DNA of 63,575 nucleotides from positions 1-63,575 of the forward strand of contig JALUUK010000112.1 of the NCBI GenBank assembly GCA_027021395.1, written 5' to 3'. Position 1 is the stretch's first letter. Each line of letters opens with the position of its first letter. The DNA comes from Acidobacteriota bacterium. Lineage in GTDB: Bacteria > Acidobacteriota > Polarisedimenticolia > J045. A model generated the notes under the pieces. The model ran no database searches. It was given only the letters and a program-made list of their open reading frames with translations, and had not been told where the DNA came from. Position numbers and translations under genes: made by a program. Shown here in pieces: positions 6,840 through 62,970 of this stretch.

Positions 6840-7300
6840 ATTGGTTTGTGTTGCGTGGCGGTTATTTTGGCGATGCGGGGTTGTCGTGTTTATTGCTTGG
6901 CGTGTTGTGATGGACACATTGAAGCGTGAGTTGCTTGAGTTGTGTGGTTGGGAGTTTGGTGATGTTGCGGATTTTTTGGGGATGTGTGAGTGTGAGCGTT
7001 TGAGCCTTGAGCGGGCGGATTTGCTTGCGTATTTGGGTGGTTGTGAGGAATCGGATTTGGCTGGCGAGTAGCTTCGTGTCGTCGCATTGGCATGTAAGTG
7101 ATTGTGTGGCTGGGAGTTACGACGCTTTTGGGCATTTGCTGGCGTCCTTCCGCGTTCTTTCACGATACTACGAGCGTGTATTGTGTACATTTGTCATTAA
7201 GGAGGCGATTTTGTGTTGTGTGGTGTTTTGTGGCGAGATACGGAAGTTGTTTTGTGGCGTGTGGTTACGTCGATTTTGGCTGGGGTATTTGGGCACTAGC
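6840..7300. other. GT-rich (75-85% G+T on + strand), lower-GC, apparently non-coding stretch with short direct repeats
   Basis: tgtgtggttgggagtt (6941-6956) vs tgtgtggctgggagtt (7103-7118). gttttgtggcg occurs at 7225-7235 and 7249-7259. The only weak ORF is 6910-7071 (53 aa, no SD). Confidence 0.5.
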
Positions 7301-7337
7301 CGTTTTTAGGTGTCACCCATGACACCTAAAATCAGGT
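7299..7337. repeat. 38-bp palindromic element, copy 1 (inverted relative to 62581..62618)
   Basis: ccgTTTTTAGGTGTCAcccaTGACACCTAAAAtcagg, arms at 7304-7315 and 7320-7331. Its reverse complement differs from the second copy at 2 positions. Confidence 0.85.
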
Positions 7338-8099
7338 TATGGGTGCAAGTAAGTTTAGGTGATAAATAGCTTTGGTGGTGAGGATGGCAGGTTTTGTGGG
7401 TGTGTTTGCTTTGATGAGGGTATCTTCGTCTGGCATGAGTCGTTTGTCGAATTCTTGCGGGAATCGGACGTTGAGGATGCGGTATGCTTTTTCGTGGAGG
7501 TAGGCGCTTTTGACGGTTTTGATGGTTGTGATTTTGGGGTGGAGTTTGAGTTCGGCGATTTTGCGGAAGGACATTTTTTGTTGGTCTCGGAGTGTGACGA
7601 CTTGGTGCATAGCGTTTCGGAGTTCGGCATCCCACTTGAGTCCTTTTGCGGTTTTGACGGCGGCGAAGGGGACGGGTTTGACGGATGGGAAGTTGCGGTT
7701 TTTTCCTGCGAGGCCGTCGAGCCATGCTTTGAGCGGATCGGAGGGTTCTCCTCTTGTGATGCTGCACTGGCACCAGCAGAACTGGATGGTGAAGTCGATT
7801 GATTCGAATTGACGTATGTCTTTAGGTGCGTTGATGATAACGCGGGGATGTGTGACGTAGAGCACGTCTTTGGGTTCGAGTCGGTCTACGAGTTTCGAGA
7901 ATATTCTTCTGAGGCGTGCTGGTTTTTTCCAGGCGTTGTCTTGTATTTCGGAGAAGTCGCCTAGCCAGAAGCCTTTGAGCAGTGCGTTCCTTCGGTTGTG
8001 TCGGTGTTGTTCGACGATGGAAGGGAACGCCCTGACGGGGCAGGCGTACGACATTTCGCACGGCATGGCGATGGCTTCGTGCCAGTCGAAGTCATTCAT
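7332..8099 (-). CDS. hypothetical protein (255 aa) with C-terminal HTH-like segment
   Basis: ATG 8099 overlaps the upstream stop by 8 nt. Contains ..QQKMSFRKIAELKLHPKTIK.. as a helix-turn-helix-like stretch. No recombinase motifs. The coding strand is AC-rich and the GC content is lower than the rest of the genome. Confidence 0.55.
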   Translation of the reverse strand: MNDFDWHEAIAMPCEMSYACPVRAFPSIVEQHRHNRRNALLKGFWLGDFSEIQDNAWKKPARLRRIFSKLVDRLEPKDVLYVTHPRVIINAPKDIRQFESIDFTIQFCWCQCSITRGEPSDPLKAWLDGLAGKNRNFPSVKPVPFAAVKTAKGLKWDAELRNAMHQVVTLRDQQKMSFRKIAELKLHPKITTIKTVKSAYLHEKAYRILNVRFPQEFDKRLMPDEDTLIKANTPTKPAILTTKAIYHLNLLAPIT

Positions 8100-8295
8100 T
8101 GAGTTCTCTCTTGAACTGTTCGATGTCTGACTTTGCGATGACGACGTACATGCCTTCTCTCTGTGCTTTGAGTCGGACGGTCTTTCCCGACTTGCTTTTG
8201 ATCCCTTTTGAGATCCACCTTCTGAGCGTATCGGTGGATGGGGTCCAGGTGAACAGGTGCCTTGCCTGCGTGATCAAGAGTTTTTCGTCATCCAT
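8092..8295 (-). CDS. small DNA-binding protein (excisionase / AlpA / DUF1580-like HTH)
   Basis: 67 aa from ATAG-free ATG 8295, with AAGGAG 8 nt upstream. ..TDTLRRWISKGIKSKSGKTVRLKAQREGMYVVIAKSDIEQF fits the winged-helix excisionase-type pattern. Confidence 0.45.
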   Translation of the reverse strand: MDDEKLLITQARHLFTWTPSTDTLRRWISKGIKSKSGKTVRLKAQREGMYVVIAKSDIEQFKRELNE

Positions 8296-9497: not shown

Positions 9498-9552
9498 CCA
9501 CGTTATGAAATGCGCGGGCAAACAATGACCGGCGTGAAGTAGGAATCTAGCA

Positions 9553-10695: not shown

Positions 10696-10738
10696 GGGTG
10701 GGCTCATCTGAAAACAATCCCTGAAGGAGAGAAAAACG

Positions 10739-11305: not shown

Positions 11306-11307
11306 AT

Positions 11308-11712
11308 GTGGCGGTTACGGAACGATCACTCAAGGCGTGGTTCGGAGACCACTGGCTGCGCGGCATGCCTCCTCCCGTGCGCGAGTCGGTCGAAGGGTCG
11401 CTTGAGGCGATTCGTACCGCCGCATATGAGATATTGAGGAACACCCCAGCCGGTCCTGAGCAGAGCCGTGCGATCACACGGCTTCGGGACCAGTTGGACC
11501 TTGCGATGCTTGCCGCGTGGGAGCAGTATCTTCCAGCATGGCAGGACGCATGGTTTGGTGACCACTGGCTGCGCGGCTTCAAACCGGAAGATAAGTCGCG
11601 TGCAGAAGTCATCCTCCGTGCCGTGCAGAGGGGCGCCGAGTCGCTTGACGGCGACCGGCGCTCGCTGCGCGGTGCCTGGCTGGCTGCAATGCGTGCGTTG
11701 AGGTGTATCTAA
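11308..11712 (+). CDS. hypothetical protein with internal AWFGDHWLRG duplication
   Basis: 134 aa with a GTG start. The motif AWFGDHWLRG occurs twice (near 11335 and 11550). Confidence 0.45.
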   Translation: MAVTERSLKAWFGDHWLRGMPPPVRESVEGSLEAIRTAAYEILRNTPAGPEQSRAITRLRDQLDLAMLAAWEQYLPAWQDAWFGDHWLRGFKPEDKSRAEVILRAVQRGAESLDGDRRSLRGAWLAAMRALRCI

Positions 11713-12230
11713 TGGTCGATGTCGTCAAGTACGTCAAGCATCCAATCGACGAAACCAAGCTGATCGATTTGCTGAAGAGCCCAGCCGTTGACAGCGTGAC
11801 GGTCTACGTGATCAAGGACGTTCCAGAAGAGGATGAGCCTCCGAAAGCGCCGCCTATCATAGCCCGCAACGTGTCGGGGCATCCCGTGTACTTCCCGCTC
11901 GATGTCGATGTGGACGTGGATGCGATGCGAGAATTCTTCCGCGACGGCGCATTCGGTCGCATCGCCGTGCTCGAGCCTGCGAACGGTTACCTTGCAAAGG
12001 TTGCAGCAATCCTGACAGGCGGGGTCGTCTACGCCGTTACGGACGGGGAACTTGACGAACGCAACATGGAGGAGTTCGACATTCGGCATGTGAATGGCGA
12101 CGCGATGCATGTTGGCGAGATCATGGAACCGCAGGAGTTGGATGCCGTCGTGATCGGACCGAGCGAACGCCAGGACGCGCTGGAGGAGGTATGGCGGAAA
12201 CACACGCAGAAGATACTCAAGATGCAATGA
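11712..12230 (+). CDS. hypothetical protein
   Basis: ATG 11712 overlaps the upstream TAA (TAATG), with GAGG about 9 nt upstream. 172 aa, acidic. Confidence 0.5.
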   Translation: MVDVVKYVKHPIDETKLIDLLKSPAVDSVTVYVIKDVPEEDEPPKAPPIIARNVSGHPVYFPLDVDVDVDAMREFFRDGAFGRIAVLEPANGYLAKVAAILTGGVVYAVTDGELDERNMEEFDIRHVNGDAMHVGEIMEPQELDAVVIGPSERQDALEEVWRKHTQKILKMQ

Positions 12231-12766
12231 CGACGTGCTGCCCGTCGTGCGGCGAGCCGATGCGATACGACGAAGCCGTTGAGGGGCCGATCGGTTATCG
12301 GTGCAAGCTGTGCGATGAACGCGCGACCGAGAGCGACCGGAGAGACAAGGTTATGCGGTACATCCGCGACCTTGTTTCGGCGCAGGTCGATTCGTCGTTG
12401 TACGCACGCGAGACGGTGCCGAGCCTGTCGGACGTTTTGATTTCGGCATACGACGAGTTCGGCGGTCCGACGCAGCTTGGCGTGCAGTGGGCGAGGGTGA
12501 TCAAGACCATGATCGACGAGTGCCTTACGACCGGCGCGAGGGCGGATAAGGCGCACAAGGCGATACTCGACTTCGCCAAGATGGCACACCTGCACGAGGA
12601 GATCGAACATCCGGGCAACTACGAAGACATGACGCCGGAGGAGCTGGAGGAGCAGCGTAAGACCGCGTTATTGCACATGTTCGCCGACATGCTCAAGCGC
12701 GATACATCCGACAAACTGCTTGAAGCAGCGAGAGTACTTGCCGATGCTGAATGTCAACCCGGCTAA
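12191..12766 (+). CDS. terminase small subunit candidate (N-terminal zinc ribbon)
   Basis: 191 aa immediately upstream of, and overlapping, the large terminase gene. Contains CPSCG..x15..CKLC. Assigned by position only. Alternative start at 12227. Confidence 0.35.
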   Translation: MAETHAEDTQDAMTTCCPSCGEPMRYDEAVEGPIGYRCKLCDERATESDRRDKVMRYIRDLVSAQVDSSLYARETVPSLSDVLISAYDEFGGPTQLGVQWARVIKTMIDECLTTGARADKAHKAILDFAKMAHLHEEIEHPGNYEDMTPEELEEQRKTALLHMFADMLKRDTSDKLLEAARVLADAECQPG

Positions 12767-14525
12767 CGCGAAGGTCATCTACGACAAGACGACCCGGATG
12801 CTGTCGGTGGCGCAGCGCGAGTTCCTGCGCGTGTATCGTCCGTTCGGCGAGCAGGAGAAGGTGCATCGGTGCAAGGCGCGTGAAATACTGATCTACGGCG
12901 GAAAGCGTGCCGGCAAGAGCGTCTGCGCAACGGCAGAGTTCACCAGCCGGGTTTTGGGTCTGCCGATCGTGTTGCCGGACGGAAGCAAGATCGAGCCGAA
13001 GTTCCCTGTCTCATCTGTCGAGAACCCCTTGACGTATTGGATCATCGGGCTCGACATGCGCCACATCGGCAAGACGATCTACCGCCTGCTGTTCGCACGC
13101 GGCATGCGCAACAGCATCCGCGTCATCAGGGACAAGGAGACAGGGAAGTGGCGCATCTTCAATGTGAACAACCCGTCCGATGTAGAACGGTTCGATGAAA
13201 GCAGGCTCGCAGGTCCAGCGATCCCGCCGCGGTACATCGAGAAGGACAGCTTTGTGTGGGAGAGCGTCAAGGCTCGCGAGTTCAGATCATTGCGGCTGGT
13301 CAACGGTGCGATGATCTACGCATTCCCGTCCACTGGGGACCACCCTGGGATGGGCGACGCCGTGGACGGCATATGGATCAACGAGGACATCGCCAAGCCG
13401 GACCACCTCGCAGAATGGCAGGATCGCCTCATCGACCGCAACGGATGGCTGATCTGGGACGCCTACCCTCAGATGCACAACCACGCGATCGTGGAGATGC
13501 ACGACCGCGCAGAATCGCAGAAGGACGACCCGGACCCTGACATCGTTTCGTTCCAGCTCATCAGCACGGACAACCCGTTCGCGAGCAAAGAGGGGCGCGA
13601 ACGCGGGATCCGGCGCATGGGCGATGAGGAGGCGGTTGCACGCCGAAGCCGCGGCGACATGCTGCGCGGCAATTACCTCATGTACAGTTTCGTGCCGTCG
13701 ATGCACCTGCTGCGCAAGGGCGCGCAGTATGACGACGAGGACATCAAGAACAGGGTCAGGTACACGCTCGAATCGGTCTACACACAGAACGGTCGCATGC
13801 CAGAAGGCTGGGCGCGATACCTCGTGATCGACCCTAGTCACACGCGCACGGCGGTTTTGTCGGGCGTCATCCCGCCGCTCGAATATAACGGCGTGTCCAT
13901 CGGCAAGCGGTTGATCATCGAATGGGATTTCGTTGCGAAGCGGTTCACGCCGGATATGCTCGCGGAGGCGCTGCTGCCGCTCGTCAGGGGGTTTGAATAC
14001 ACGTCGTTCATCATCGACAAAAACCAGGGCAGGCAGCATACGGTCGGTTCTGACGGTCGTGCGGTGGTGCAGGTGTACGCGGACGCATTCAGCCGGTTTG
14101 GGATCATAAGCCGCCGGACCCGCAGCGGGTTCGAATACGGCACGAACGACACGGCATATCGGCGCAACGTGGTTCGTGAGATGCTTTCGGCGGTAGACGG
14201 CGGTGTCCCGATGCTCCTGTTTTGCGACCAGGCGACATATGAGACGCAACGCGAGTTCAACCGGTACGTGAAGAAGATCCTCAAGGTGAACGGTGTGGAC
14301 GAGGTTATTGACGAGCCATCGAACCCACGAACATGCGACTGCATGCAGGCGTTGGAATACCTTTGCGCACACGTGAAGCCGGAGATCGAGACGGGCGATG
14401 TGTACCGCCATGATTCGGCGCATGAAGCGACGCTTCCGCCTTGGGTGCAGAAGTTTTTGGACGAAACGGACCCGAACAAGCACAAGCGCGGCTCGATCCA
14501 TTTGGGTCCTGGTTTAGCAACGTAA
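12744..14525 (+). CDS. terL: terminase large subunit
   Basis: 593 aa. Walker A ILIYGGKRAGKS, Walker B-like DGIWINED, C-terminal RNaseH-like nuclease acidic motifs (YLVIDPS, FIIDKNQG). Confidence 0.85.
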   Translation: MLNVNPANAKVIYDKTTRMLSVAQREFLRVYRPFGEQEKVHRCKAREILIYGGKRAGKSVCATAEFTSRVLGLPIVLPDGSKIEPKFPVSSVENPLTYWIIGLDMRHIGKTIYRLLFARGMRNSIRVIRDKETGKWRIFNVNNPSDVERFDESRLAGPAIPPRYIEKDSFVWESVKAREFRSLRLVNGAMIYAFPSTGDHPGMGDAVDGIWINEDIAKPDHLAEWQDRLIDRNGWLIWDAYPQMHNHAIVEMHDRAESQKDDPDPDIVSFQLISTDNPFASKEGRERGIRRMGDEEAVARRSRGDMLRGNYLMYSFVPSMHLLRKGAQYDDEDIKNRVRYTLESVYTQNGRMPEGWARYLVIDPSHTRTAVLSGVIPPLEYNGVSIGKRLIIEWDFVAKRFTPDMLAEALLPLVRGFEYTSFIIDKNQGRQHTVGSDGRAVVQVYADAFSRFGIISRRTRSGFEYGTNDTAYRRNVVREMLSAVDGGVPMLLFCDQATYETQREFNRYVKKILKVNGVDEVIDEPSNPRTCDCMQALEYLCAHVKPEIETGDVYRHDSAHEATLPPWVQKFLDETDPNKHKRGSIHLGPGLAT

Positions 14526-14556
14526 CCCCTCAACTGAACATCAGTAGGAGACAGAC

Positions 14557-15027
14557 ATGGCAGAGACCAAAGAATTGTCAGACATTTGTCAGCAAGTGCT
14601 TGCCCGCATTGACAACGAGCGCAAGAACCCGCTGCCCACGCCCCCGAAGGGCACGATCGTCGGCTGGATCGACCGCCCGCAGCGGTACAAGCAGCGCGGC
14701 GGCTTGGTGGGCATCGTCACATCGCGCATCGCGCCTGGGCGCGTCAACGTCGAGATTTTCGGCGAGGGGCAGAAGATGGTCCGCAGCGGCGCCGTGTATA
14801 TCGGGCACCCGGAGTTGATCAACCGTGCGAACACGGTGATGAGCAGCGGCGGGTGCTGGTACTACCTCGAGGTCGAGGACAACCCGAAGTTCAAGCCGCC
14901 GAAGAGCGATTACGAATGGCACCTGCAAATGCTTGACAAGCAGGAGGAGCGTGCGCTCGAGGACGAGAAGCTGCGTCAGCAGCAGGAGGAAGAGCGTAAG
15001 CTGCTCGAATCGCAGCAAAGGGTGTAA
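14557..15027 (+). CDS. hypothetical protein
   Basis: 156 aa between terL and portal. C-terminal charged coiled coil. Confidence 0.5.
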   Translation: MAETKELSDICQQVLARIDNERKNPLPTPPKGTIVGWIDRPQRYKQRGGLVGIVTSRIAPGRVNVEIFGEGQKMVRSGAVYIGHPELINRANTVMSSGGCWYYLEVEDNPKFKPPKSDYEWHLQMLDKQEERALEDEKLRQQQEEERKLLESQQRV

Positions 15028-15030
15028 CCT

Positions 15031-17250
15031 ATGGATTGGACGGATACCGAGTTCCTGAGACCGTTGGTGTCGGCATGGCTCGGCAAGATCGAAACCGCGT
15101 ACAAGAACGAGCACCGGAGGCACTTCGTGGACGTCGCCGAGGAGTGCAAGATGTTCTACGCGCGGTCATGCGCTGCGCTGTGGAACTCGAAGTGGTCGTC
15201 CAAGTTCCTGAACAACGTCATTGAGCGCCCGCGGTTCCCCATCTCCGTCAACAAGGCATTCGAGCTTGTCGCCGTCATCGGACCGAACGTGCTATGGGAC
15301 ATCCCGTACCGCAAGGTCATGCCGAAGCAGCGATTGGCGATCGATGACGATACGCTCGAACAGCTCATGCGCAACCCGGAAATCGCCCAGGAACTCCAGA
15401 TTCGCATGCAGTTCGACCAGTACAACGTGGCGACGGCGAACGTCGTCGCCGATCTGTTGGAGAAGTGGTTGAACTACACGTCCAGGGAGATGCCCGGCGG
15501 CGGGATGACGCAGCATTCGCAGACGATGGCGATCGACGCCATGCTGACCGGACGCGGTGTGCGGTTCGTCAAGACCTATCAGTACCCAGGATCCGACCGG
15601 AGCATCGTCGGATCGTTTCGTGAGGATCCGCTTGATCTGCTGATCGATCCCGATGTCAAGGACATCAACAATGCCAAGTGGATCATGCTCAAGCACCGCG
15701 AACCGTACTGGGAGGTCGAGGAGCGGTTTCAGTTGCCGAGCGGTTCGCTCAAGGACAAGGCGAGTTTGGAATCGACCTGGAGCTATTCCGAGAGCGTATT
15801 CGGCAACAGCGATTCCACCGCCCAGCCGCGGCTTGAGGAAGAGCGCGACATCGTGGTGTGGTGCGAGATCTGGTCCAAGATGGGACCCGGCTCGAAGATG
15901 GTCCGCCACATGGATGCCGGGTTGCGTGATCATCTTGAGCGTGTGGTCGGCGACTACGCCTACATTGCGATTGCAGCGAACGTTCCGTGGCCGTTGAATT
16001 GCCCGTCGGATAAGATGCGGCGCGGCATGACGGACGACGAGGTGCGGCAGTGCTTCTCGTGGCCAACGCCGCTTTGGGCTGATGACCGATGGCCATGCGA
16101 GGTGTGCGACTTCTACCCGAACCCGGATTCTCCGTACCCTGTGGCTCCGCTCGAGCCGGGCATGGGATATTTGAAGTTCCTGAACCTGATGCTCCCGTTC
16201 CTGGCGCAGCGCACATGGTCTGCGAGCCGTGACTTTTGGGCGGTGTTGGGCTCGCACATGGAGCGGTACGAGAAGTACATCAACAACGGCAAGGACCAGT
16301 GCGTCATACCGGTTGATCCGACGAGCGATGATGTTCGCAAGGCGATCACCATTCTACAGCAGCCTCCGGTGAACATCGACGCTTGGAAGATCACGGACGT
16401 TATGGCCGAATGGTTCGAGCGTGCGACGGGCTTGAGTGCGTTTCAGTACGGCATGAAGGCCGGCGATTCGAACGACCGGTCGGCCACCGAGACGCAGGCT
16501 CGTGCGCGTGCTGCCGGCGTTCGGCCGCAATACATGCAGAAGCGCATCGCCGAGACGGAGGGGCGGATAGCAGCGACCGAGGCGTTCCTGAGCAGGTGGT
16601 TCATCGACGGCAGGGATGTCGAGCCACTTGGCGGATCGACGTTCCGGTACCTCTGGGAGAAGTTCGTGATGAGCGCCGAGGTGGAGATGGTGGTACGTCA
16701 GATGTCCTACACCATTTCCGCCAGCAGTTTGCAGCGTCCCGACCGCGAGCGGGACATGATGATTTGGGACCGGATGATCCAGGTGCTTGGTCCGCAATAC
16801 TTCCAGTATGCGTTGGCGACCGGCGAGTTCAAGGGTTGGAATACGCTCGTCGAGGCATGGGCTGAGAACCTGGACGCCGCCCGCGACAGGATCGACGGTC
16901 TGATGCTCGATCGTCCGGAACCGAGCCCTGAGGCGCAACAGGCTCAGCAGCAGCAGGCGCAGCTTGAGCAGCAGAAGATGCAGATGGAGCTTGCCTCCAA
17001 GCAGATGGACTTGCAGGGCAAGCAGCTTGAGGTCCAGGGCAAGCAGGCGGCGATTCAGGGCGAGGTTGCGAAGACGCTGCTGGAGCAGCGGGTTGCTGCG
17101 ACGGAGGCTGCGGCGGAACAGAGGAAGGCGGAAATCGAAATCGCCAAGGCGAGCGCAGCCTTGGATGCGGCATCGCGCAAGCACGCGATTGACTTACTAT
17201 CGAAGCAGGCGTCGGCGAAGATCGACATAGCCAAGAAGCTAGTGGGGTGA
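15031..17250 (+). CDS. portal protein
   Basis: 739 aa, directly after the terminase module. Long C-terminal Q/A/E coiled coil (AQQAQQQQAQLEQQKMQMELASKQ..). Size and position are typical of portals. Confidence 0.7.
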   Translation: MDWTDTEFLRPLVSAWLGKIETAYKNEHRRHFVDVAEECKMFYARSCAALWNSKWSSKFLNNVIERPRFPISVNKAFELVAVIGPNVLWDIPYRKVMPKQRLAIDDDTLEQLMRNPEIAQELQIRMQFDQYNVATANVVADLLEKWLNYTSREMPGGGMTQHSQTMAIDAMLTGRGVRFVKTYQYPGSDRSIVGSFREDPLDLLIDPDVKDINNAKWIMLKHREPYWEVEERFQLPSGSLKDKASLESTWSYSESVFGNSDSTAQPRLEEERDIVVWCEIWSKMGPGSKMVRHMDAGLRDHLERVVGDYAYIAIAANVPWPLNCPSDKMRRGMTDDEVRQCFSWPTPLWADDRWPCEVCDFYPNPDSPYPVAPLEPGMGYLKFLNLMLPFLAQRTWSASRDFWAVLGSHMERYEKYINNGKDQCVIPVDPTSDDVRKAITILQQPPVNIDAWKITDVMAEWFERATGLSAFQYGMKAGDSNDRSATETQARARAAGVRPQYMQKRIAETEGRIAATEAFLSRWFIDGRDVEPLGGSTFRYLWEKFVMSAEVEMVVRQMSYTISASSLQRPDRERDMMIWDRMIQVLGPQYFQYALATGEFKGWNTLVEAWAENLDAARDRIDGLMLDRPEPSPEAQQAQQQQAQLEQQKMQMELASKQMDLQGKQLEVQGKQAAIQGEVAKTLLEQRVAATEAAAEQRKAEIEIAKASAALDAASRKHAIDLLSKQASAKIDIAKKLVG

Positions 17251-17253
17251 GAC

Positions 17254-17472
17254 ATGGACGAGCAGATCCAAGAGGCGATCGCGTTGTACAAGCAGGCGTT
17301 GGAGCAGGGCGACGTGGAGACGGCGCAGAAGATCAAGGCGATGCTTGCGGAGATGGGGATAGACGTGGACGACATCCTTGGCGGCGAGCGTGGTATGGAG
17401 ATGCCGATGCGTGGCGCGATGGGTCCGATGGCGCAGCGAATCCAATCCATGTTGAGTCCGGGAGAGATGTGA
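17254..17472 (+). CDS. hypothetical small protein
   Basis: 72 aa, tightly packed after the portal gene. Confidence 0.45.
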   Translation: MDEQIQEAIALYKQALEQGDVETAQKIKAMLAEMGIDVDDILGGERGMEMPMRGAMGPMAQRIQSMLSPGEM

Positions 17473-17663
17473 TGAAGGACGAACGGTGGATCCAGGAAGC
17501 GACCTCGAAGAACAGGGGTGCGTTCAAGCGTCAGGCGGCGCGTCGTGGCATGACGACAGCCGAGTTCATCCGTGTCGTTTTGCGTCCAGGCAGCAGGTTC
17601 AATGCGAGGACGAAGCGCAGGGCGAGCCTTGCAAGGACTCTGATGAAGCTGCGAAAGAAGTGA
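17472..17663 (+). CDS. hypothetical basic small protein
   Basis: ATG 17472 overlaps the upstream TGA (TGATG). 63 aa, rich in Lys and Arg. Confidence 0.45.
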   Translation: MKDERWIQEATSKNRGAFKRQAARRGMTTAEFIRVVLRPGSRFNARTKRRASLARTLMKLRKK

Positions 17664-17681
17664 TGTGCTGAGGAGAACGGA

Positions 17682-18164
17682 ATGAACCAGGAAATCTACG
17701 ATGCTGCGATCAAGAACGGGTGCACGCCGCGCATGGCGGAGATGCTTGCCGCGCGCAAGGGTCCTGGTTTGAACACGGACACATCCTGGTGGGCGGGGAA
17801 CACGCATTTCTCCGAAGAGCATGGCGACGAGTATGCGGAGCGGACTCGGAAGCTCGTCGAGCGGCATGGCGGGCACATGGGTCCGCATGACGATTACATC
17901 CCGTGGCTTGCGCGGTTCCCTGGAGATCCGAACGCGGTCATCAGCGGCATGGATGCCAAGTCGGGGATTGCGAGAGCCGCGGAGACGCATCAGGCGGAGA
18001 TCGTGCGCAGGAAGACGAAGCCGGCGCCGCCGCTTGCGCCCGACCTCGTTGAAGAGAAGGTATCGCAGGTTGCACCGGACCATGACAAGCTGCCTGCGAA
18101 GGAGAAGCAGAAACTCAAACAGGAGATTATCGAGAAGCACGCCTATAAACCAGAAGGAGAATAG
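17682..18164 (+). CDS. hypothetical protein
   Basis: 160 aa in the morphogenesis operon. Confidence 0.5.
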   Translation: MNQEIYDAAIKNGCTPRMAEMLAARKGPGLNTDTSWWAGNTHFSEEHGDEYAERTRKLVERHGGHMGPHDDYIPWLARFPGDPNAVISGMDAKSGIARAAETHQAEIVRRKTKPAPPLAPDLVEEKVSQVAPDHDKLPAKEKQKLKQEIIEKHAYKPEGE

Positions 18165-18166
18165 AC

Positions 18167-18934
18167 ATGGCGATTTCAGACCGACTCAATCAAGCCCTGA
18201 TCAGCGCCCTGTGCGATCACACGCTTGGCAGCGAGATCAAGGGATACCTGGACAACGTTTCCGTGCTCTCCGGCACGGAGGCGGCTTACATCGACGGCAT
18301 CACCGAGGGCACGGTGACCGCCCAGAAGGCTGTTGTCGTCGATTCGAACAAGGACATCACGGGCTTCCGCAACATCGGGCTGACCGGCGAGGTGAGTTCA
18401 TCGAGCGGGGCGGGCACCGCGGCGGGTACGGGCGTTGCCGCGACGGAGAAGGGCGACGGGATCATTCACAAGACCGTGTTGACCTTCACGAACGTGGCGG
18501 TGCCGCTGACGGACGAGCCGGGTGTTGTGGCTTACGGCGGATTGAAGGTGTACGACTTCCCGGAGGGTGCGATTCGCATCTTCGGCGCCGTGAGCGACGT
18601 TGACCTGACCAAGAGTTCGGCGGGGGTGATCGACACGTGGGACGGCGATATGTCTGTCGGGACGGCGACCGCCGGGAACGATGCGACGCTTTCGGGCACC
18701 GAGGCGGACATCATCCCGAGCACGGCGACCCCGCAGGCGGTTGCCGGCGCGACGACCGCCAACGCTCAGAGCACAGCGAGCGAGGATACGGTGCACGATG
18801 GGACGACCACGGCGAAGGACGTGTACTTCAACCTGTTGGTTGACGACACGGACCATGACGTGACGACCACGCCGTGCAACCTGATCCTGAACGGGACGTT
18901 GACCATTTTGTGGGCAAATCTCGGTGACTACTGA
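18167..18934 (+). CDS. virion structural protein
   Basis: 255 aa. N-terminal ..LSGTEAAYIDGITEGTVTAQKAVVVDSNKDITGFRNIGLTG.. is a motif I recall from phage structural proteins. Rich in Thr, Ala and Gly. Confidence 0.45.
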   Translation: MAISDRLNQALISALCDHTLGSEIKGYLDNVSVLSGTEAAYIDGITEGTVTAQKAVVVDSNKDITGFRNIGLTGEVSSSSGAGTAAGTGVAATEKGDGIIHKTVLTFTNVAVPLTDEPGVVAYGGLKVYDFPEGAIRIFGAVSDVDLTKSSAGVIDTWDGDMSVGTATAGNDATLSGTEADIIPSTATPQAVAGATTANAQSTASEDTVHDGTTTAKDVYFNLLVDDTDHDVTTTPCNLILNGTLTILWANLGDY

Positions 18935-56404: not shown

Positions 56405-58087
56405 TCAGTAGAGAGCGTCCTTCGGCACATTCGCGATCTTCCGGTGCCAATCGCTTGCCCTCTTGGGCATGAGCGGCAGGTTCCTGGGCGGATGGTGTGC
56501 CTTCCACGGTGCGAACTCGTACCGCGTACCTTGTGCGGCTTCGCGTGCGACGGACATGAAAAACTGCTGATACAGTTGGTTGAACGTCAGTTCACCGCCG
56601 TGCTTCTTCATTGCGTTCCAGTAGAGCCCACGCCATCTGCCTTCGTTTGAAGGGGCGTCCTTGATCTTCCACTGATCGATGGGTTTCCCGGAAACGAGCT
56701 TGAGTTTCCCATCCTCGTGGATGATGTTGCGGCACGGCTTGTTGATGTCGAATTTCGCCCCGCACTGCTCGCAGTAGAGCAGCCGTTTTTTCATGGAGTT
56801 GTGCAGGGCGCCGCAATGCGGGCACGCAACCCCTTCCAGTTTCCCGGTTTCCCTGATTCTGGATATTCGGTTTTTTGCCAGGACGTTTGCGTCGTCGGTT
56901 GCGAACGCTTCGTCCCAGTCTTGGTTTGCATTTGGAGACCCCCACCGCCACCAGTTCCCTCCGTGATCGGTGACGGTGACGGTCTCCGGGGTCAGCTCCG
57001 ACCTGCGTAGAGCACGACCAACCATTTGCAGGTAACTCCTATGGCTTCCTACCGGAGTTGCGAGGATGAGGTTCTTGATGAGGGGTTCATCGATCCCTTC
57101 TCGCAGGACGAACCTGTTCCAGATGATGTTGATTTCCCCATCCCGCCACTGCTGCATGAGTTCTTCGAACAGGCTGTTTTCGGTCCTCCGATCGTGCATT
57201 TCGCCGTCGCACCAGAAGTCGGTCCCATCGACATGCAGTGCTCGGTAGCCCATGGATGTGAACCATCTGGCAGCCCAGAGCGATTCCTGTACTCCCGGCG
57301 CGAACGCGATGGTGTGAGTCCTGGTTTCGTTGAGGCTCTGCCAGCTCTTGAGGATGTTCCCGATGATGGAAGCCCGCTTCTTCCCTTTCTCGGTCCCCCA
57401 CGTTTTCCGTGCCTGCGCCTCGGACATTGACAGGTCCACCTTCCAGGATGTGAGTTTCCTGGTGTCGAGTTCTGACGGCGCGAACACGATCGCTCTTGCG
57501 AGCACCCGTTCCTTGATGAGATCCCACGTTCCTGCTGCGCAGACTAGCTTATCGTATGCGAGCCCGAGCCCGAGCGGCGTTGCGGTTACGCCGATTATTT
57601 TCGCCCCGCGTGCCAGATACCCGCTGAGAAGCCCCAGATTGCCGCCTGTGGCCATTTTGTGTGCTTCATCGACGATTACCACGTCTGCGTCCACCCATTC
57701 GTCAGAATCCTTCTGGATGCGTGATTTGACGGTTTGGATGGTGCAGATTTGGACGGGCTCGGTTCTGTAGTCGAGGTATTCCATTTGTGCCGACCGGACG
57801 CCGAACGGGATGCCTGCTTCGGAGTAGACCCGGATGGTTTGCTGCGTGAGCAGGATGCGGTCCATGAACAAGGCGACCCGTTTTCCTTGGTTGAGAGCCC
57901 ACCGGATGAGTGCCATCTGCATTTCGGTTTTCCCGGACCCTGTTGGGGATGTGAGGCAGACGGCGCGTTCGCCGTTGGAGATGGCGTTGATCGTCTGTTC
58001 TACGCCGTAGACTTGGTGTTTCCACGGGGCGTCTACGGAGAAGATCGACGCTTCGGTAATCATCTCGTCAGCCTCTGCTGTCATCAT
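56405..58087 (-). CDS. SF2 DEAD/DEAH-box helicase (ResIII-type) with C-terminal zinc ribbon
   Basis: 560 aa. Motif I TSPTGSGKT, motif II VIVDEAHK, motif III VTATP, motif VI QMVGRALRR. Also CPHCG..x12..CEQCG. Confidence 0.85.
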   Translation of the reverse strand: MMTAEADEMITEASIFSVDAPWKHQVYGVEQTINAISNGERAVCLTSPTGSGKTEMQMALIRWALNQGKRVALFMDRILLTQQTIRVYSEAGIPFGVRSAQMEYLDYRTEPVQICTIQTVKSRIQKDSDEWVDADVVIVDEAHKMATGGNLGLLSGYLARGAKIIGVTATPLGLGLAYDKLVCAAGTWDLIKERVLARAIVFAPSELDTRKLTSWKVDLSMSEAQARKTWGTEKGKKRASIIGNILKSWQSLNETRTHTIAFAPGVQESLWAARWFTSMGYRALHVDGTDFWCDGEMHDRRTENSLFEELMQQWRDGEINIIWNRFVLREGIDEPLIKNLILATPVGSHRSYLQMVGRALRRSELTPETVTVTDHGGNWWRWGSPNANQDWDEAFATDDANVLAKNRISRIRETGKLEGVACPHCGALHNSMKKRLLYCEQCGAKFDINKPCRNIIHEDGKLKLVSGKPIDQWKIKDAPSNEGRWRGLYWNAMKKHGGELTFNQLYQQFFMSVAREAAQGTRYEFAPWKAHHPPRNLPLMPKRASDWHRKIANVPKDALY

Positions 58088-58965
58088 GATTCTTCTGGCA
58101 CCCCAAGGAACTCCCGCGTGTACTCCATCGCATTGTCGATGGCGTCCATGATGATCGATCGCGTCCCATCGTTTGGCAGATTGAGCGCATCCGCCGCCTT
58201 GTCGATGAGGCGGATCACCTCGCCGAATTTGGCGTCGATCTGGTTCCAGTAGACGTGCGGATCGAGCTTCGGCTGAGGCTTCTTCTTTTTGCGTTTCGGC
58301 AGCGCCTTGATGAGATCGCCGATTTTCGCTGCCTGCCCGACCCTGACCTTGCGCACGATGACGATTTGCTCTTCTTCCGGCAGTTCCGCGAGCGCTTGCA
58401 GCTCCTCTTCGGTTGCGACGACCGAACCGCTTTCAATCGCCCTTCTCGCCGGCGTGCACAGCTTCTCTACGAGGTCGTGGAAATCCACCGCCCGTCTGAC
58501 GGTAGCCCTGGAGAGCCCGAGTTCATTCGAGACGCTTCGCGACTTCGGAGATAAGTCTTTCTCCTTGCGTTGCTTGGGTTTATGCTCGTCCGCTGGTTTT
58601 TCTTCGCTGATTTTCTTTGCGATCGTTTTCGCACGGCATGCGATCCCGATTTTCCTGATCTGGAGCCGTGCTTGCAGGCTGAGGTTCCGCCTGTCGGTTG
58701 CCCTACTGATCGCGATGGCCTTGATTTCGTTCCGCGATCGCCCTACGCCGATTTCTTTCGCCGGACATTGGATGCCGAGTTCCTGCGCGATTTTGAAGCG
58801 GTGCACGCCATCGACGATGATGTTCTTGCTTCCGTCGAACCAGTAGAGTACGGGGTCTGTGATTTCCCCTTCCCACTCAATGGCCGATTTGAGTGCTTGG
58901 TAGTCGTCTGGTTCGAGCGCCGGAATCTCTGCGTGCAGGTCGTCATCAATGAAGAGTTCAGGCAT
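58084..58965 (-). CDS. ParB-like nuclease domain protein with C-terminal HTH
   Basis: 293 aa from ATG 58965 (GGAGA upstream). ..PVLYWFDGSKNIIVDGVHRFKIAQELG is the ParB/Srx N-domain motif. ..LGLSRATVRRAV is HTH-like. Confidence 0.7.
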   Translation of the reverse strand: MPELFIDDDLHAEIPALEPDDYQALKSAIEWEGEITDPVLYWFDGSKNIIVDGVHRFKIAQELGIQCPAKEIGVGRSRNEIKAIAISRATDRRNLSLQARLQIRKIGIACRAKTIAKKISEEKPADEHKPKQRKEKDLSPKSRSVSNELGLSRATVRRAVDFHDLVEKLCTPARRAIESGSVVATEEELQALAELPEEEQIVIVRKVRVGQAAKIGDLIKALPKRKKKKPQPKLDPHVYWNQIDAKFGEVIRLIDKAADALNLPNDGTRSIIMDAIDNAMEYTREFLGVPEES

Positions 58966-59011
58966 TTTCGTCTCCACCACCGATCCAGTTTTTTCGATCC
59001 AGCCGTTTCCG

Positions 59012-59407
59012 TCAACGCTGTTTCGCCCATTTCCCGCGAGACGGGCGCTTTGCTCTTGGCAATCTTCCACCCAACCACAAGCCAGCCAAGTACTTGCGAT
59101 CGTAGAATTTTCCGTCGAATTTTTTCTTGAGCCAGAGCAATTCTGCCAACGTGATCTTTGGCATTGCCGCGCCGTCGATGACGCACCGCAGCCCGTGTGC
59201 GAGTTTGTGGCACAGCGAGCAGAGCATGACGACTTCCCGCCGGTCGTCGTGCCTTCTGCCGATTCCAGGGATGATGTGATGCGCTTCGATAATCATCGGG
59301 AAATGCCACGGATCGCCGTATCTCCAGCCGCAGTACCAGCATTCAGCGTTTTCGATTCTTAGGCTTTCGATGGTACTCGGGCTGCGCTGTGTCCGGGTAT
59401 TGTTCAT
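59012..59407 (-). CDS. HNH endonuclease
   Basis: About 131 aa (ATG 59407 or 59425). CWYCGW..EAHHIIPG..LCSLCHKLAHG is the HNH beta-beta-alpha-metal motif. Overlaps both neighbouring genes. Confidence 0.75.
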   Translation of the reverse strand: MNNTRTQRSPSTIESLRIENAECWYCGWRYGDPWHFPMIIEAHHIIPGIGRRHDDRREVVMLCSLCHKLAHGLRCVIDGAAMPKITLAELLWLKKKFDGKFYDRKYLAGLWLGGRLPRAKRPSRGKWAKQR

Positions 59408-61378: not shown

Positions 61379-61752
61379 TTGCATGGATCAGCGCTGATGA
61401 TGTTTCGATACATGGACAGGAACGGAATACGCCATCCGTACACGTTGAACCGGTATGTTGCGCCGGGCTGGATTTCCCCGTATATGTCCGACGAGTTGAA
61501 CTTCAGGTACATCAAACTATCCTTGTTGCACAAGGTTTCCTTGTCCGTGAAGACGAGATAGATGCGCTTTGTGGAACTGCCCGACCCTGTGACCACTGCT
61601 TCGGTTTTCTTTACAGTTGCGGTGACTGAATCGCGTGTCCCGTAAGTAAATGCACACGGAATGGTCACAATGAGGCATACGCCGATGGTGGTCAATGCGA
61701 TGCCCTTGTATCGCCTGATGACTCTGCCGAATTTTCCTTTCATGTCATCCAT
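61375..61752 (-). CDS. membrane-anchored protein (DUF1523-like)
   Basis: 125 aa from ATG 61752. N-terminal TM segment IALTTIGVCLIVTIPCAF. ..YLKFNSSDIYGEIQPGATYRFNVYGWRIPFLSMYRNI resembles DUF1523. Recalled, not computed. Confidence 0.4.
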   Translation of the reverse strand: MDDMKGKFGRVIRRYKGIALTTIGVCLIVTIPCAFTYGTRDSVTATVKKTEAVVTGSGSSTKRIYLVFTDKETLCNKDSLMYLKFNSSDIYGEIQPGATYRFNVYGWRIPFLSMYRNIISADPCK

Positions 61753-62020
61753 CGTACAGCTCCCGGTGTCTGTTTTTGAACTCGATTGCGAACCGCTTCG
61801 GTGGCATGAGGGTATGCCACAGCTCCATGTCGATGGCCCGTGCGAACCGTTCCGCCGTTTGCAGTCGCACCGCCCGCTTGCCGTTGACGACATCTGACAC
61901 GAACGACTGGTGGCATCGCATCTTCTTTGCGATCCTGGTTTGCGTGAGCCGATGTTTCTGCATGGCGTATCGGATGTTCTGCGCAAACCGTTCGACGATA
62001 GCAGGAGTGTCCATTCTCAT
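61745..62020 (-). CDS. XRE-family (Cro/CI-type) HTH transcriptional regulator
   Basis: 91 aa. ..IRYAMQKHRLTQTRIAKKMRCHQSFVSDVVNGKR is a typical HTH_3 pattern. Confidence 0.75.
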   Translation of the reverse strand: MRMDTPAIVERFAQNIRYAMQKHRLTQTRIAKKMRCHQSFVSDVVNGKRAVRLQTAERFARAIDMELWHTLMPPKRFAIEFKNRHRELYDG

Positions 62021-62331: not shown

Positions 62332-62580
62332 ATGCTGGACTCCTCAGCCAACTACGCGAAGAACCGCGTTGGAAGGGCTAAAAGAAATCATAGCCATTCC
62401 CATATACATGAATAGCCCCTCGTTTGGTTTTTTTCTGGTTGCAACCGATTTTTGCTTGGATCATCGCATTCCATCGGTCGTCTTTCCGAGATTGCGTCGC
62501 ACCGCGTTGCCAGGCACTTTTCTCTATCCGCTTCGCCCATGCTGCCCATGTTAATTACCATTATTCGGTACAGATGGGCA

Positions 62581-62618
62581 CCTGTTTTTAGGTGTCATGG
62601 GTGACACCTAAAAACAGG
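62581..62618. repeat. 38-bp palindromic element, copy 2
   Basis: CCTGTTTTTAGGTGTCAtgggTGACACCTAAAAACAGG, a 17-bp perfect inverted repeat around a 4-nt centre. It is the reverse complement of 7299..7337 apart from 2 mismatches. Confidence 0.85.
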
Positions 62619-62713
62619 CGGGGTTGTCCGGTCCTGGGGGGTTGTACAAAACTCGTGGTGTGTGGCGGTACTTATTGAGTGCCACCATTGCGAGTGCTTT
62701 CGCATGACATTCA

Positions 62714-62794
62714 TTATTTGCTCATGAGGGCACACATTCCGACGGCGAACGCCGCGATCACACACACGAGCAGAATCGTTTCGAGTACGGGCAT
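62714..62794 (-). CDS. possible 26-aa TM peptide
   Basis: MPVLETILLVCVIAAFAVGMCALMSK, with AAGGAGGA 9 nt upstream of ATG 62794. Overlaps the 3' end of 62758..62970 in another frame. Confidence 0.3.
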   Translation of the reverse strand: MPVLETILLVCVIAAFAVGMCALMSK

Positions 62795-62970
62795 TGTCTT
62801 GCATCCTCCTTGACGAGGTTCAGGTGCCATCCTCTGGCGTCGTAGATGATCCCTTGTGGCCAGACACCGAACATCCGTTTCCAGGTAGCGATTGCTCGGT
62901 GGTACCGTTCGAACGGCAGTGTATTGAGCCACCGCCAGTGTCTCCAGTGTTTTGTAGATTCGTTTGACAT
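62758..62970 (-). CDS. hypothetical Trp/Arg/His-rich protein directly downstream of the repeat array
   Basis: 70 aa from ATG 62970 (GGAGGA at 62975-62980). Begins MSNESTKHWRHWRWLNTLPFERYHRAIATWKRMF... Confidence 0.5.
   Translation of the reverse strand: MSNESTKHWRHWRWLNTLPFERYHRAIATWKRMFGVWPQGIIYDARGWHLNLVKEDARQCPYSKRFCSCV

What the first reader, a model, noticed from the sequence alone, without database searches (positions are those of the whole stretch)
62581..62618. Two inverted copies of a 38-bp palindromic element bracket the ~8.2-kb accessory segment that holds the TnpB-like/array locus
- CCTGTTTTTAGGTGTCAtgggTGACACCTAAAAACAGG (62581-62618) recurs as its reverse complement at 7299-7337 with 2 mismatches.
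- Going through the circular junction, the two copies delimit about 8.2 kb.
- That segment contains the array, the TnpB-like gene, the small-gene operon with hairpin repeats, the secretin-like pseudogene and the GT-rich stretch.
- T-runs precede and A-runs follow the stem on both strands, so these are not intrinsic terminators.
- A third half-site (TTTAGGTG) lies at about 7354-7361.
- Possible roles: operators for a dimeric HTH protein (the XRE gene at 61745 and the small HTH gene at 8092 are the nearest candidates), recombination sites, or ends of an inserted or invertible module.
Basis: seen in the sequence. Interest (0 to 1): 0.6.

Follow-up and report, generated by a model that had tools for sequence, protein, structure and literature searches.

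The report
Paired palindromic protein-binding sites in phage
Two copies of a 38-bp palindrome really do flank the variable accessory region of this circular phage genome, but comparison with related phages suggests they are conserved binding sites for a phage DNA-binding protein, most likely a decayed serine-recombinase relative encoded next to one of them, and not the ends of an inserted or invertible element.

Summary
Site A (62581-62618) is a perfect 17+4+17 palindrome. Site B (7299-7336) is a near copy. These are the only two copies in the 4.4-Mb assembly, and the contig closes into a 63,472-bp circle, so they lie about 8.2 kb apart.

The interpretation needs revision.
- **Conserved sites.** Two related phages carry an orthologous 7-4-7 palindrome at the same positions: just after the 255-aa gene, and ahead of the early operon.
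- **Co-variation.** The half-site differs between genomes (GGTGTCA here, GGTTTCA in relatives) but matches within a genome.
- **Composite, direct repeats.** Four of five sites are followed, after 18 nt, by CCAAATACC on the leftward-gene strand (site A has a degraded version). Judged by this flank, A and B are direct repeats. Only the 4-bp centre and one indel read as "inverted".
- **Independent of dCas12f.** One relative keeps site B but has no dCas12f.
- **Candidate binder.** The 255-aa gene beside site B encodes a decayed serine-recombinase homologue. Its nucleophile motif and E-helix are missing, but its helix-turn-helix (HTH) is intact.
- **Excluded.** No Tyr/Ser recombinase, ParA or Y1 transposase was detected. 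The sites have no U-tract.

Best reading: paired operator or insulator sites bound by a phage HTH protein. The binder and its effect are inferred, not shown.

The parts
62581..62618 (.). Site A: perfect 38-bp palindrome (17-bp arms, 4-bp centre). It lies in the gap between the last small accessory ORF (stop at 62714) and the early leftward operon.
7299..7336 (.). Site B: near copy of site A. The inner 12-bp arms pair perfectly. It overlaps the TGA stop codon (7332-7334) of the 255-aa gene.
7284..7292 (-). CCAAATACC box, 18 nt downstream of site B on the minus strand. The same box sits at the same distance at three of the four other sites in this phage group (L012 B, L032 B', L032 A').
62567..62580 (-). 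Degraded counterpart of the box next to site A (TGCCCAtctgTACC), in direct orientation relative to site B's flank.
7332..8099 (-). 255-aa protein: a decayed serine-recombinase homologue with a confident C-terminal three-helix HTH (residues 156-215). Favoured binder of the palindromes.
8092..8295 (-). 67-aa Xis/excisionase-like winged-helix protein (my reading of the sequence; no family hit). Translationally overlapped with the 255-aa gene and about 85-87% identical in relatives. Possible binder of the invariant CCAAATACC box.
61745..62020 (-). XRE-family HTH protein (91 aa) in the early operon downstream of site A. Alternative binder.
58084..59070 (-). ParB/Srx-like N-terminal domain plus HTH protein. 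The real start is probably Met36, about 58965. Alternative binder.

Best explanation
Sites A and B are two copies of a composite cis-element that belongs to the conserved backbone of this phage group. Each consists of an 18-bp core palindrome (GGTKTCA-N4-TGAMACC, extended to 28-38 bp in this phage). In four of the five sites examined an exact CCAAATACC box follows at a fixed 18 nt; site A here carries a degraded version.

The palindrome is most likely bound by a dimer of a phage-encoded HTH protein. The best candidate is the 255-aa protein encoded immediately next to site B. This protein is a serine-recombinase homologue that has lost its catalytic motifs but kept its DNA-binding domain. The nearly invariant 67-aa Xis-like protein encoded just upstream may bind the invariant box.

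Each site sits at the tail of one leftward transcription unit, about 170-290 nt ahead of the next leftward gene. The bound complexes probably act as operators, roadblocks or insulators. They would separate the regulator operon, the variable accessory module (dCas12f, array and morons) and the early operon. They may possibly also pair with each other.

Shown: the sites, their conservation, the co-variation, and the nature of the neighbouring gene.
Inferred: which protein binds, and what binding does.
For: 1. **Orthologous sites in relatives.** L012 carries GGTTTCAcgcaTGAAACC 17 nt after the stop of its 249-aa homologue. L024/L032 carries GGTTTCAtcggTGGATCC after its 255-aa homologue. It also carries a perfect GGTTTCAtgcaTGAAACC between the array-side genes and the early operon (148-aa gene, XRE, YqaJ).
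2. **Dyad symmetry is maintained across the five sites.** 85.5% of cells are paired, against 30-45% when the pairing partner is slid. One pair changes on both sides (T:A in 3 sites, G:C in 2). Both sites within a genome share the same variant.
3. **Hairpin too weak in relatives.** In relatives the arms are only 7 bp and A/T-rich, too weak for a structural hairpin. The half-site centres are 11 bp apart, about one helical turn, as in classical dimeric HTH operators (read).
4. **Fixed spacing to the box.** An exact CCAAATACC follows after 18 nt in 4 of 5 sites, and the intervening sequence varies.
5. **The 255-aa protein is recombinase-derived.**
   - Its only remote homologues among 1.84 billion representatives are two Resolvase-domain proteins.
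   - hhalign gives 96.8% and 95.9% probability.
   - The homologue P0008 occupies the same position, next to the first late gene, in a syntenic relative.
   - The YxRxS nucleophile motif and the E-helix segment are absent, and Pfam Resolvase gives no hit even at E<=10.
   - AlphaFold2 is confident only for a three-helix HTH at residues 156-215.
6. **Protein and site vary together.** The first residues of the 255-aa recognition helix differ between this phage (TIKTVKS) and both GGTTTCA phages (CHKSAKY, CHKLAKR). The 67-aa protein is about 86% identical across them, like the invariant box.
7. **Presence and absence agree.** Three genomes have both the protein and the palindrome. The 95%-complete distant relative G023 has neither.
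Against: - No binding data exist, and only three closely related genomes carry the system. The co-variation and co-occurrence arguments therefore rest on very few independent events.
- The ParB-like protein's HTH also differs between this phage and its homologues from the sample that yielded L012 and L024. Helix co-variation does not single out the 255-aa protein.
- Site B in L024 is imperfect (5 of 7 standard pairs), so perfect symmetry is not strictly required.
- Site A in this phage lacks an exact CCAAATACC.
- No promoter could be placed at or next to the sites in this phage. In L032 the clear early promoter lies about 200 nt downstream of its site. The regulatory logic is therefore unknown.
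- The N-terminal 155 residues of the 255-aa protein are conserved but unmodelled, so residual catalysis is not formally excluded.
Confidence: 0.45

Rival explanations
1. The palindromes are binding sites for a different phage DNA-binding protein. One candidate is the ParB/Srx-like HTH protein (58084-59070), with the sites acting as parS- or KorB-operator-like loading sites. The other is the XRE/Cro-like repressor (61745-62020) of the early operon.
For: - **ParB-like protein.** It has a ParB-type layout (GxxR-like box, HTH, LPxExQ segment) that aligns end to end with ParB_N proteins. It gives weak hits to a ParB-like PHROG (E=0.0036) and to SbnI (E=0.006).
- **parS resemblance.** The relatives' core GGTTTCA..TGAAACC contains both hexamers of canonical parS (TGTTTCAC-GTGAAACA; recalled knowledge).
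- **ParB-like HTH changes.** Its HTH differs between this phage and its homologues from the L012/L024 sample.
- **Clostridial parallel.** The exact window motif is multi-copy next to ParA, ParB_N and RHH genes in clostridial mobile elements.
- **XRE.** It lies in the operon downstream of site A.
Against: - No ParA is encoded on the contig.
- Pfam ParB_N does not reach E<=0.1 on this contig.
- The centre is 4 bp, not the 2 bp of parS, and no canonical parS is present.
- The ParB-like gene is 3.5 kb from A and over 11 kb from B, whereas site B abuts the 255-aa gene in all three genomes.
- The XRE recognition helix is nearly unchanged (CHQSFVSDVVNGKR versus CHQSYVSDIVNGKR) although the half-site differs.
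- The window's GGTGTCA is probably the derived state in this phage group, so the clostridial match is probably convergent.
Confidence: 0.2
2. The elements act as nucleic-acid hairpins in leftward transcripts. Possible roles are U-tract-less terminators, RNase III processing sites, or 3'-end stabilisers marking the ends of transcription units.
For: - Both sites lie 0-95 nt after the last ORF of a leftward unit, in this phage and in its relatives.
- The window hairpins are very stable, about -27 to -35 kcal/mol with z-scores of -4 to -8.
- C/A-rich, G-poor RNA follows site B, which is rut-like.
- The L024 site B keeps partial pairing through a G-U wobble on the sense strand.
Against: - No U-tract follows on either strand.
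- In relatives the stem is only 7 A/U-rich pairs in genomes of 57-60% G+C, which is too weak.
- A generic hairpin gives no reason for the two sites of one genome to share a sequence that differs between genomes, nor for the box at fixed distance.
- On the sense transcript the A loop (CCCA) and the B loop (UGGG) differ.
Confidence: 0.12
3. The sites are still recombination sites. Recombination between the inverted cores would invert the 8.2-kb accessory module, or the module would be excised, in a Gin/Cin/Hin-like manner. The catalyst would be the 255-aa protein or a host enzyme.
For: - The layout resembles invertible segments: two sites bracket a segment and a recombinase-family gene sits just outside one site.
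- In this phage the central GG/CC dinucleotides match only in the inverted alignment.
- The region between the sites is hypervariable among relatives.
- The A/B pair shows signs of past sequence exchange in the inverted register.
Against: - The nucleophile motif and E-helix are missing, and there is no Resolvase or Phage_integrase hit on the contig.
- The half-site centres are 11 bp apart. Resolvase and invertase crossover sites have 12-13-bp arms around a 2-bp core (recalled knowledge).
- The L032 centres, GC and CG, are incompatible in either orientation.
- All three genomes have the accessory genes in the same leftward orientation.
- The flanking box makes the composite sites direct repeats.
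Confidence: 0.08
4. The extended perfect palindromes are mutational products (quasi-palindrome correction and gene conversion) at module boundaries. They have no present function beyond serving as short homology patches for mosaic exchange between phages.
For: - The long 17-bp arms are specific to this phage; relatives have 7-bp arms.
- One relative's site is decayed.
- Content between the sites is mosaic.
Against: The core and its distance to CCAAATACC are conserved at two separate loci across genomes whose flanking DNA is only about 70-77% identical.
Confidence: 0.05

Closest known systems
Dimeric HTH operator palindromes of phage regulators (lambda/434/P22 operators; dyad sites of the Mu Mor and C activators)
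   Same: - A short dyad-symmetric site with half-sites about one helical turn apart.
- A centre that is free to vary.
- Several copies per genome at operon boundaries.
- Site and protein specificity that differ between related phages.
   Different: - No promoter overlaps the sites here.
- There is one site per locus, not tandem operators.
- A second conserved box lies at a fixed 18 nt.
- The favoured binder is recombinase-derived, not a CI/Cro-type protein.
Small serine recombinase systems (Tn3/gamma-delta resolvase-res; Hin/Gin/Cin invertases with hix/gix/cix)
   Same: - A recombinase-family gene sits directly beside one of two related palindromic sites that bracket a DNA segment.
- Resolvase bound at res also acts as a transcriptional repressor (recalled knowledge).
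   Different: - The protein lacks the YxRxS nucleophile motif and the E-helix.
- The sites are 7-4-7, not 12-2-12.
- The central dinucleotides do not match in a relative.
- No variation in orientation is seen among genomes.
ParB-parS, KorB-OB and dispersed N15 SopB centromere sites
   Same: Few dispersed palindromes in a phage or plasmid genome that also encodes a ParB-like HTH protein. The relatives' half-site hexamers equal those of parS.
   Different: - No ParA is present.
- The centre is 4 bp.
- Membership of the ParB-like protein in the family is weak.
- Site B is tied to a different gene.
HTH autoregulators of rpoE-dcas12f loci, which bind 7-9-bp inverted repeats near their own gene (PMC13472631)
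   Same: An HTH protein with an inverted-repeat site accompanies a nuclease-dead Cas12f module.
   Different: - In those loci the repeat lies within 50 bp of the hth start, and a sigma-E gene is present.
- Here the sites flank the whole module, no sigma factor is encoded, and relative L012 keeps site B without any dCas12f.

Membership tests
Intrinsic (Rho-independent) terminator | G+C-rich stem-loop followed directly by a U-tract | tested here: not met
   The stems are followed by an A-run on both strands. The terminator scan does not call them. Relatives have 7-bp A/T-rich stems without a T-run on the sense strand.
REP/MITE-like dispersed repeat | Many copies scattered through the host or element genome | tested here: not met
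   There are only two sites in the 4.38-Mb assembly. No match was found in viral contigs.
Serine-recombinase crossover site (res site I, hix/gix) | A cognate recombinase with the catalytic Ser (YxRxS) motif and E-helix | tested here: not met
   The 255-aa protein is homologous to Resolvase-domain proteins but lacks both segments. It gives no Pfam Resolvase hit at E<=10. PF00239 gives no hit on the contig.
Serine-recombinase crossover site (res site I, hix/gix) | About 12-bp arms around a 2-bp core that is identical in the partner sites | tested here: not met
   The conserved arms are 7 bp around a 4-bp centre. The centres are GG/CC in the window (compatible only when inverted) and GC versus CG in L032.
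Tyrosine-recombinase site (lox/FRT/dif/attP) | A 6-8-bp asymmetric spacer and a tyrosine recombinase | tested here: not met
   The spacer is 4 bp. PF00589 hits occur only on other contigs.
IS200/IS605 (TnpB-associated) end hairpins | Subterminal hairpins at both ends of an element that carries TnpA(Y1) and/or TnpB | tested here: not met
   No Y1 transposase family appears in the 77-ORF Pfam sweep. L012 has site B but no dCas12f/TnpB homologue. The sites are backbone features.
ParB-parS / KorB-OB | A ParB_N plus HTH protein (usually with ParA) and a cognate palindrome | tested here: inconclusive
   The ParB-like layout aligns with ParB_N proteins, with weak PHROG and SbnI hits. Pfam ParB_N is not reached, ParA is absent, and there is no canonical parS.
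Dimeric HTH operator | Dyad symmetry kept across relatives, including symmetric substitutions, with half-sites about 10-11 bp apart | tested here: met
   85.5% of cells are paired against 30-45% in slid controls. There is one double-sided change, T:A to G:C. The 7-4-7 geometry is seen.
Dimeric HTH operator | Demonstrated specific binding by a cognate protein | not testable with these tools
   This needs EMSA, footprinting or ChIP.

The most novel reading that the evidence does not exclude
A serine recombinase has been exapted into a non-catalytic DNA-architecture protein. Together with its Xis-like partner it would bind the two composite sites and synapse them. This would loop out the 8-11-kb accessory module (dCas12f, guide array and morons) as an insulated, co-regulated domain between the regulator operon and the early operon.
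Probability: 0.12. Interest if true: 0.75.

Novelty: new variant of a known kind. Interest (0 to 1): 0.45.

Why it matters
If confirmed, this would be an example of a site-specific recombinase that lost catalysis but kept its DNA sites and was reused as a regulator or insulator. It would sit at the borders of the hypervariable accessory region of a phage that carries a nuclease-dead Cas12f system.

In practical terms, it defines the cis-elements and candidate trans-factors that probably control when the dCas12f module and the early operon are expressed. It also corrects the impression that the dCas12f locus sits on a mobile or invertible cassette.

If the sites are simply operators of an ordinary repressor, the finding is routine phage regulation.

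Tried and rejected
- **Near-identical relatives.** Megablast against GenBank phages found none. The host's order (23 genomes) has no related DNA.
- **Guide-array spacers.** They do not match the palindromes or their flanks; only chance-level 10-13-mers were found. A dCas12f-targeting link is rejected.
- **Rfam.** Nothing relevant at the sites or at the clostridial look-alikes.
- **Promoter readings.**
  - No sigma-70-like -10 lies at a proper distance from the TGACA in the arms.
  - I considered an ECF-like -35 TGAAAC-N17-CCAAA reading with the 255-aa protein as a sigma factor. I dropped it because Sigma70_r4 reaches only E~0.1-0.2, the exhaustive search points to recombinases instead, and no sigma family appears in the phage.
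  - The resemblance of TTTAGGTG to the SP6 promoter was dismissed; the Pfam sweep found no RNA-polymerase family.
- **Clostridial motif link.** The exact TTTAGGTGTCA-N4-TGACACCTAAA motif occurs in clostridial mobile elements. No protein homology to the window was found (ParB comparisons at E of 0.3 or higher). Relatives suggest the window's half-site is a derived state, so I treat the match as convergent.
- **More site-A equivalents.** YqaJ, helicase, the 104-aa protein and the ParB-like protein gave only distant or short contigs. The L012-type palindrome has no second copy in IMG/VR.
- **Structure.** The AlphaFold2 model of the 255-aa protein was too poor (pLDDT 44) for a fold search of its N-terminal domain.

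Full report
**1. Observation**

Site A (62581-62618) reads CCTGTTTTTAGGTGTCA-tggg-TGACACCTAAAAACAGG. It is a perfect 17+4+17 palindrome. Site B (7299-7336) reads GCCGTTTTTAGGTGTCA-ccca-TGACACCTAAAATCAGG. The arm sequence gives four matches at up to 3 mismatches, against 0.04 expected by chance.

These are the only occurrences in the whole 4.38-Mb assembly. They are also the longest perfect hairpins on the contig. The contig ends overlap by an exact 103 bp. The genome is therefore a 63,472-bp circle, or has a short terminal repeat, and the A-to-B arc through the junction is about 8.2 kb.

Aligned as a reverse complement, B differs from A by one substitution and one 1-nt indel over 40 bp. The similarity stops 1 nt beyond the palindrome. 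Neither stem is followed by a T-run, and the terminator scan ignores both.

**2. Genome context**

| Region | Strand | Content |
|---|---|---|
| about 8.4-38.5 kb | + | Late operon: major head protein 9553-10695, large terminase 12720-14525, portal 15031-17250 |
| 62.3 kb down to 39 kb | - | Early operon: 104-aa gene, XRE regulator 61745-62020, YqaJ, Erf, HNH, ParB-like protein, SF2 helicase |
| 8295-7332 | - | 67-aa gene overlapping a 255-aa gene, divergent from the late operon |
| between the two sites | mostly - | Accessory genes, including the nuclease-dead Cas12f-like gene and its array described in earlier notes |

Site B overlaps the stop codon of the 255-aa gene. Site A lies 95 nt after a small ORF (62794-62714) and about 250 nt before the first well-supported early gene (62331). 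The intervening 57-aa ORF has no ribosome-binding site.

**3. Relatives**

Three contigs from one metagenome belong to close relatives.

- **L012** is collinear with window 7386-18668 at 77% identity. It also matches 62858-62970, but has a different 5.2-kb insert between these blocks.
- **L024/L032** are two views of one 15.6-kb contig. It runs from the late-operon edge through the 67-aa and 255-aa genes and an 11-kb accessory region. That region includes a 72%-identical dCas12f with its array. The contig ends in the early operon: a 148-aa gene, XRE and YqaJ.

The orthologous palindromes are as follows.

| Site | Position | Core sequence (sense strand) |
|---|---|---|
| window A | before the early operon | GGTGTCA-ccca-TGACACC |
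| window B | overlaps the stop of the 255-aa gene | GGTGTCA-tggg-TGACACC |
| L012 B | 17 nt after the stop of the 249-aa homologue | GGTTTCA-tgcg-TGAAACC |
| L032 B' | after the 255-aa homologue | GGTTTCA-tcgg-TGGATCC |
| L032 A' | between the array-side genes and the early operon | GGTTTCA-tgca-TGAAACC |

The two-site layout is therefore conserved. The half-site differs between genomes (GGTGTCA here, GGTTTCA there) but agrees within a genome.

Across the five sites, 85.5% of arm positions remain complementary, against 30-45% when the pairing partner is slid. One position shows the symmetric change T:A to G:C.

On the strand of the leftward genes, four of the five sites are followed by exactly 18 variable nucleotides and then CCAAATACC. 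Window site A has TGCCCAtctgTACC at that place. Exact CCAAATACC occurs nowhere else in these sequences. Judged by this flank, A and B are direct repeats of a composite element. Only the 4-bp centre and one indel suggest inversion.

L012 keeps site B although it has no dCas12f homologue. A more distant, 95%-complete relative (the record behind L027) has a Cas12-like gene and an array directly upstream of its early operon. It has neither the palindrome nor a 255-aa homologue.

**4. What the sites are not**

- **Terminators.** There is no U-tract, and the stems in relatives are only seven A/T-rich pairs.
- **REP/MITE repeats.** There are only two copies.
- **IS200/IS605 ends.** No Y1 transposase is present, and the sites are independent of dCas12f.
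- **Guide-RNA targets.** Spacers match nothing near them.
- **Active recombination sites.**
  - Phage_integrase and Resolvase models hit only other contigs.
  - A Pfam sweep of 77 ORFs shows no recombinase, ParA or sigma factor.
  - The 7-4-7 geometry does not fit serine or tyrosine recombinase core sites.
  - The centres of the two L032 sites (GC, CG) could not be religated to each other.
  - All three genomes keep the accessory genes in the same orientation.

**5. The neighbouring gene**

The 255-aa protein has no family hit. Its homologues reach Sigma70_r4 only at E of about 0.1-0.2.

An exhaustive profile search of 1.84 billion representatives found just two remote relatives. Both carry a Pfam Resolvase domain. 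Profile alignment gives 96.8% and 95.9% probability. It covers the middle of the catalytic domain (..KKP..R...KL...L..GD.L.V..) and the C-terminal DNA-binding region.

One of these recombinases, P0008 on locus L034, sits at the same place in a syntenic relative, next to the first late gene.

In the 255-aa family the YxRxS nucleophile segment and the E-helix segment are missing. AlphaFold2 is confident only for a three-helix HTH at residues 156-215.

The gene is intact and about 52% identical among the three phages. It therefore appears to be maintained by selection, presumably for DNA binding and not for catalysis.

The first residues of its recognition helix are TIKTVKS in this phage. In the two GGTTTCA phages they are CHKSAKY and CHKLAKR. 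The upstream 67-aa protein is about 86% identical in all three, which parallels the invariant CCAAATACC box. I read this protein as Xis/excisionase-like from its sequence; that is an inference, since it has no family hit.

**6. Best explanation and rivals**

The most economical reading is that A and B are paired composite protein-binding sites of the phage backbone. They would be bound by the recombinase-derived 255-aa protein, and perhaps by the 67-aa protein at the box. They would act as operators, roadblocks or insulators at the joints between three units: the regulator operon, the variable accessory module and the early operon. My confidence is about 0.45. The binder and the effect are inferred.

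Other binders remain possible, at about 0.2 in total.
- **ParB/Srx-like HTH protein.** Its layout aligns with ParB_N proteins, with weak hits. Its HTH also differs from its homologues. The relatives' half-site shares both hexamers with parS. However, no ParA is present, Pfam ParB_N is not reached, and the centre is 4 bp.
- **XRE protein.** Its recognition helix is almost unchanged despite the half-site change.

The remaining rivals are RNA or DNA hairpin roles (0.12), residual recombination or inversion (0.08) and non-functional boundary palindromes (0.05).

**7. Side result on the exact motif**

TTTAGGTGTCA-N4-TGACACCTAAA also occurs in low-G+C clostridial contigs: Dorea hominis NSJ-36, RUG300 and OLSM01000194. 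There it is multi-copy, with variable centres. One locus carries a ten-unit 37-bp tandem array upstream of a MobL relaxase, next to ParA, a ParB_N protein and an RHH protein.

That looks like a centromere or global-operator system of a conjugative element. No protein of the window is detectably related to the proteins of those loci. GGTGTCA is probably the derived variant in this phage group, so I regard the identity as convergent.

**8. Limits**

- Only three related genomes carry the system, so the co-variation and co-occurrence arguments rest on few events.
- No promoter could be assigned near the sites in this phage.
- The N-terminal domain of the 255-aa protein is unmodelled.

**9. Verdict**

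The feature is real, non-random and conserved. It is better described as a pair of regulatory protein-binding sites tied to a decayed recombinase gene than as the ends of a mobile or invertible cassette. It is a new variant of a known kind (phage operator or insulator sites) and of moderate interest.

Noticed in passing
L010:1029-2545 and 7627-7683; L011; L009:6609-7853; L007:5046-6896: Clostridial mobile elements carry many copies of TAGGTGTCA-N4-TGACACCTA with variable centres. One locus has a ten-unit 37-bp tandem array just upstream of a MobL relaxase. Paired sites precede most small genes, and ParA, a ParB_N protein (333/349 aa, 37% identical between two elements) and an RHH protein lie nearby. 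This looks like a sopC/KorB-OB-type centromere and global operator system.
   Followed up: partly
window 7332-8099 (-); L034:1814-2878: The 255-aa protein is a decayed serine-recombinase homologue with no nucleophile motif and no E-helix. In the syntenic relative L034 a 354-aa protein with an intact Resolvase domain sits at the same position, followed by an RHH gene and a Sigma70_r4 gene.
   Followed up: yes
L027:3779-6440: A distant relative (64.8-kb IMG/VR record; helicase 52% identical) carries a 530-aa ORF at the position of the dCas12f gene. It shows no detectable similarity to the window dCas12f and I read it as Cas12-like from position only. An array of at least 14 units of a roughly 36-bp repeat (GTGAAAACGTCTGGGGAGACGGAGAGGAATTGCAGG) follows, directly upstream of its early operon. 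The 'guide array in front of the early operon' layout therefore appears to extend beyond the close relatives.
   Followed up: no
window 6727-7292 (-); L012:4830-5200; L024:3005-3400: The non-coding, C/A-rich (sense strand) stretch after site B contains blocks conserved among the three phages: CCAAATACC, CCACAAAACAACTT, and a 75-nt block at 6727-6801 that is 80% identical in L024, L025 and L026. It could hold a promoter, a rut site or an origin. It is unexplained.
   Followed up: partly
window 62714-62794 (-) and 62595-62804 (-): A 26-aa hydrophobic ORF (MPVLETILLVCVIAAFAVGMCALMSK) has a good GGAGG ribosome-binding site. The overlapping 69-aa ORF that reads into palindrome A has none and is probably spurious. 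The 57-aa ORF at 62388-62561 also lacks a ribosome-binding site.
   Followed up: partly
L032:12958-12986: A textbook promoter, TTGACA-17-TACAAT, lies about 20 nt before the ribosome-binding site of the first early gene in the relative. No equivalent is recognisable at the corresponding place in the window (62332-62560).
   Followed up: partly
L012:1931-1961 and 2944-2974: Two identical 13-bp-stem G+C-rich hairpins (CCCTCGCACCCAG-ccgcc-CTGGGTGCGAGGG) lie in the relative's accessory region. They recall the intergenic hairpin repeats noted earlier in the window's small-gene operon.
   Followed up: no
window, ORFs not located individually: The Pfam sweep of 77 ORFs shows a Tad4 (Thoeris inhibitor) domain at E=4.6e-19 and a weak WYL domain at E=2e-4, besides RusA, a Dam-type methylase, DHH/DHHA1, radical SAM/SPASM and a sulfotransferase. 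I did not map the Tad4 and WYL hits to coordinates.
   Followed up: no
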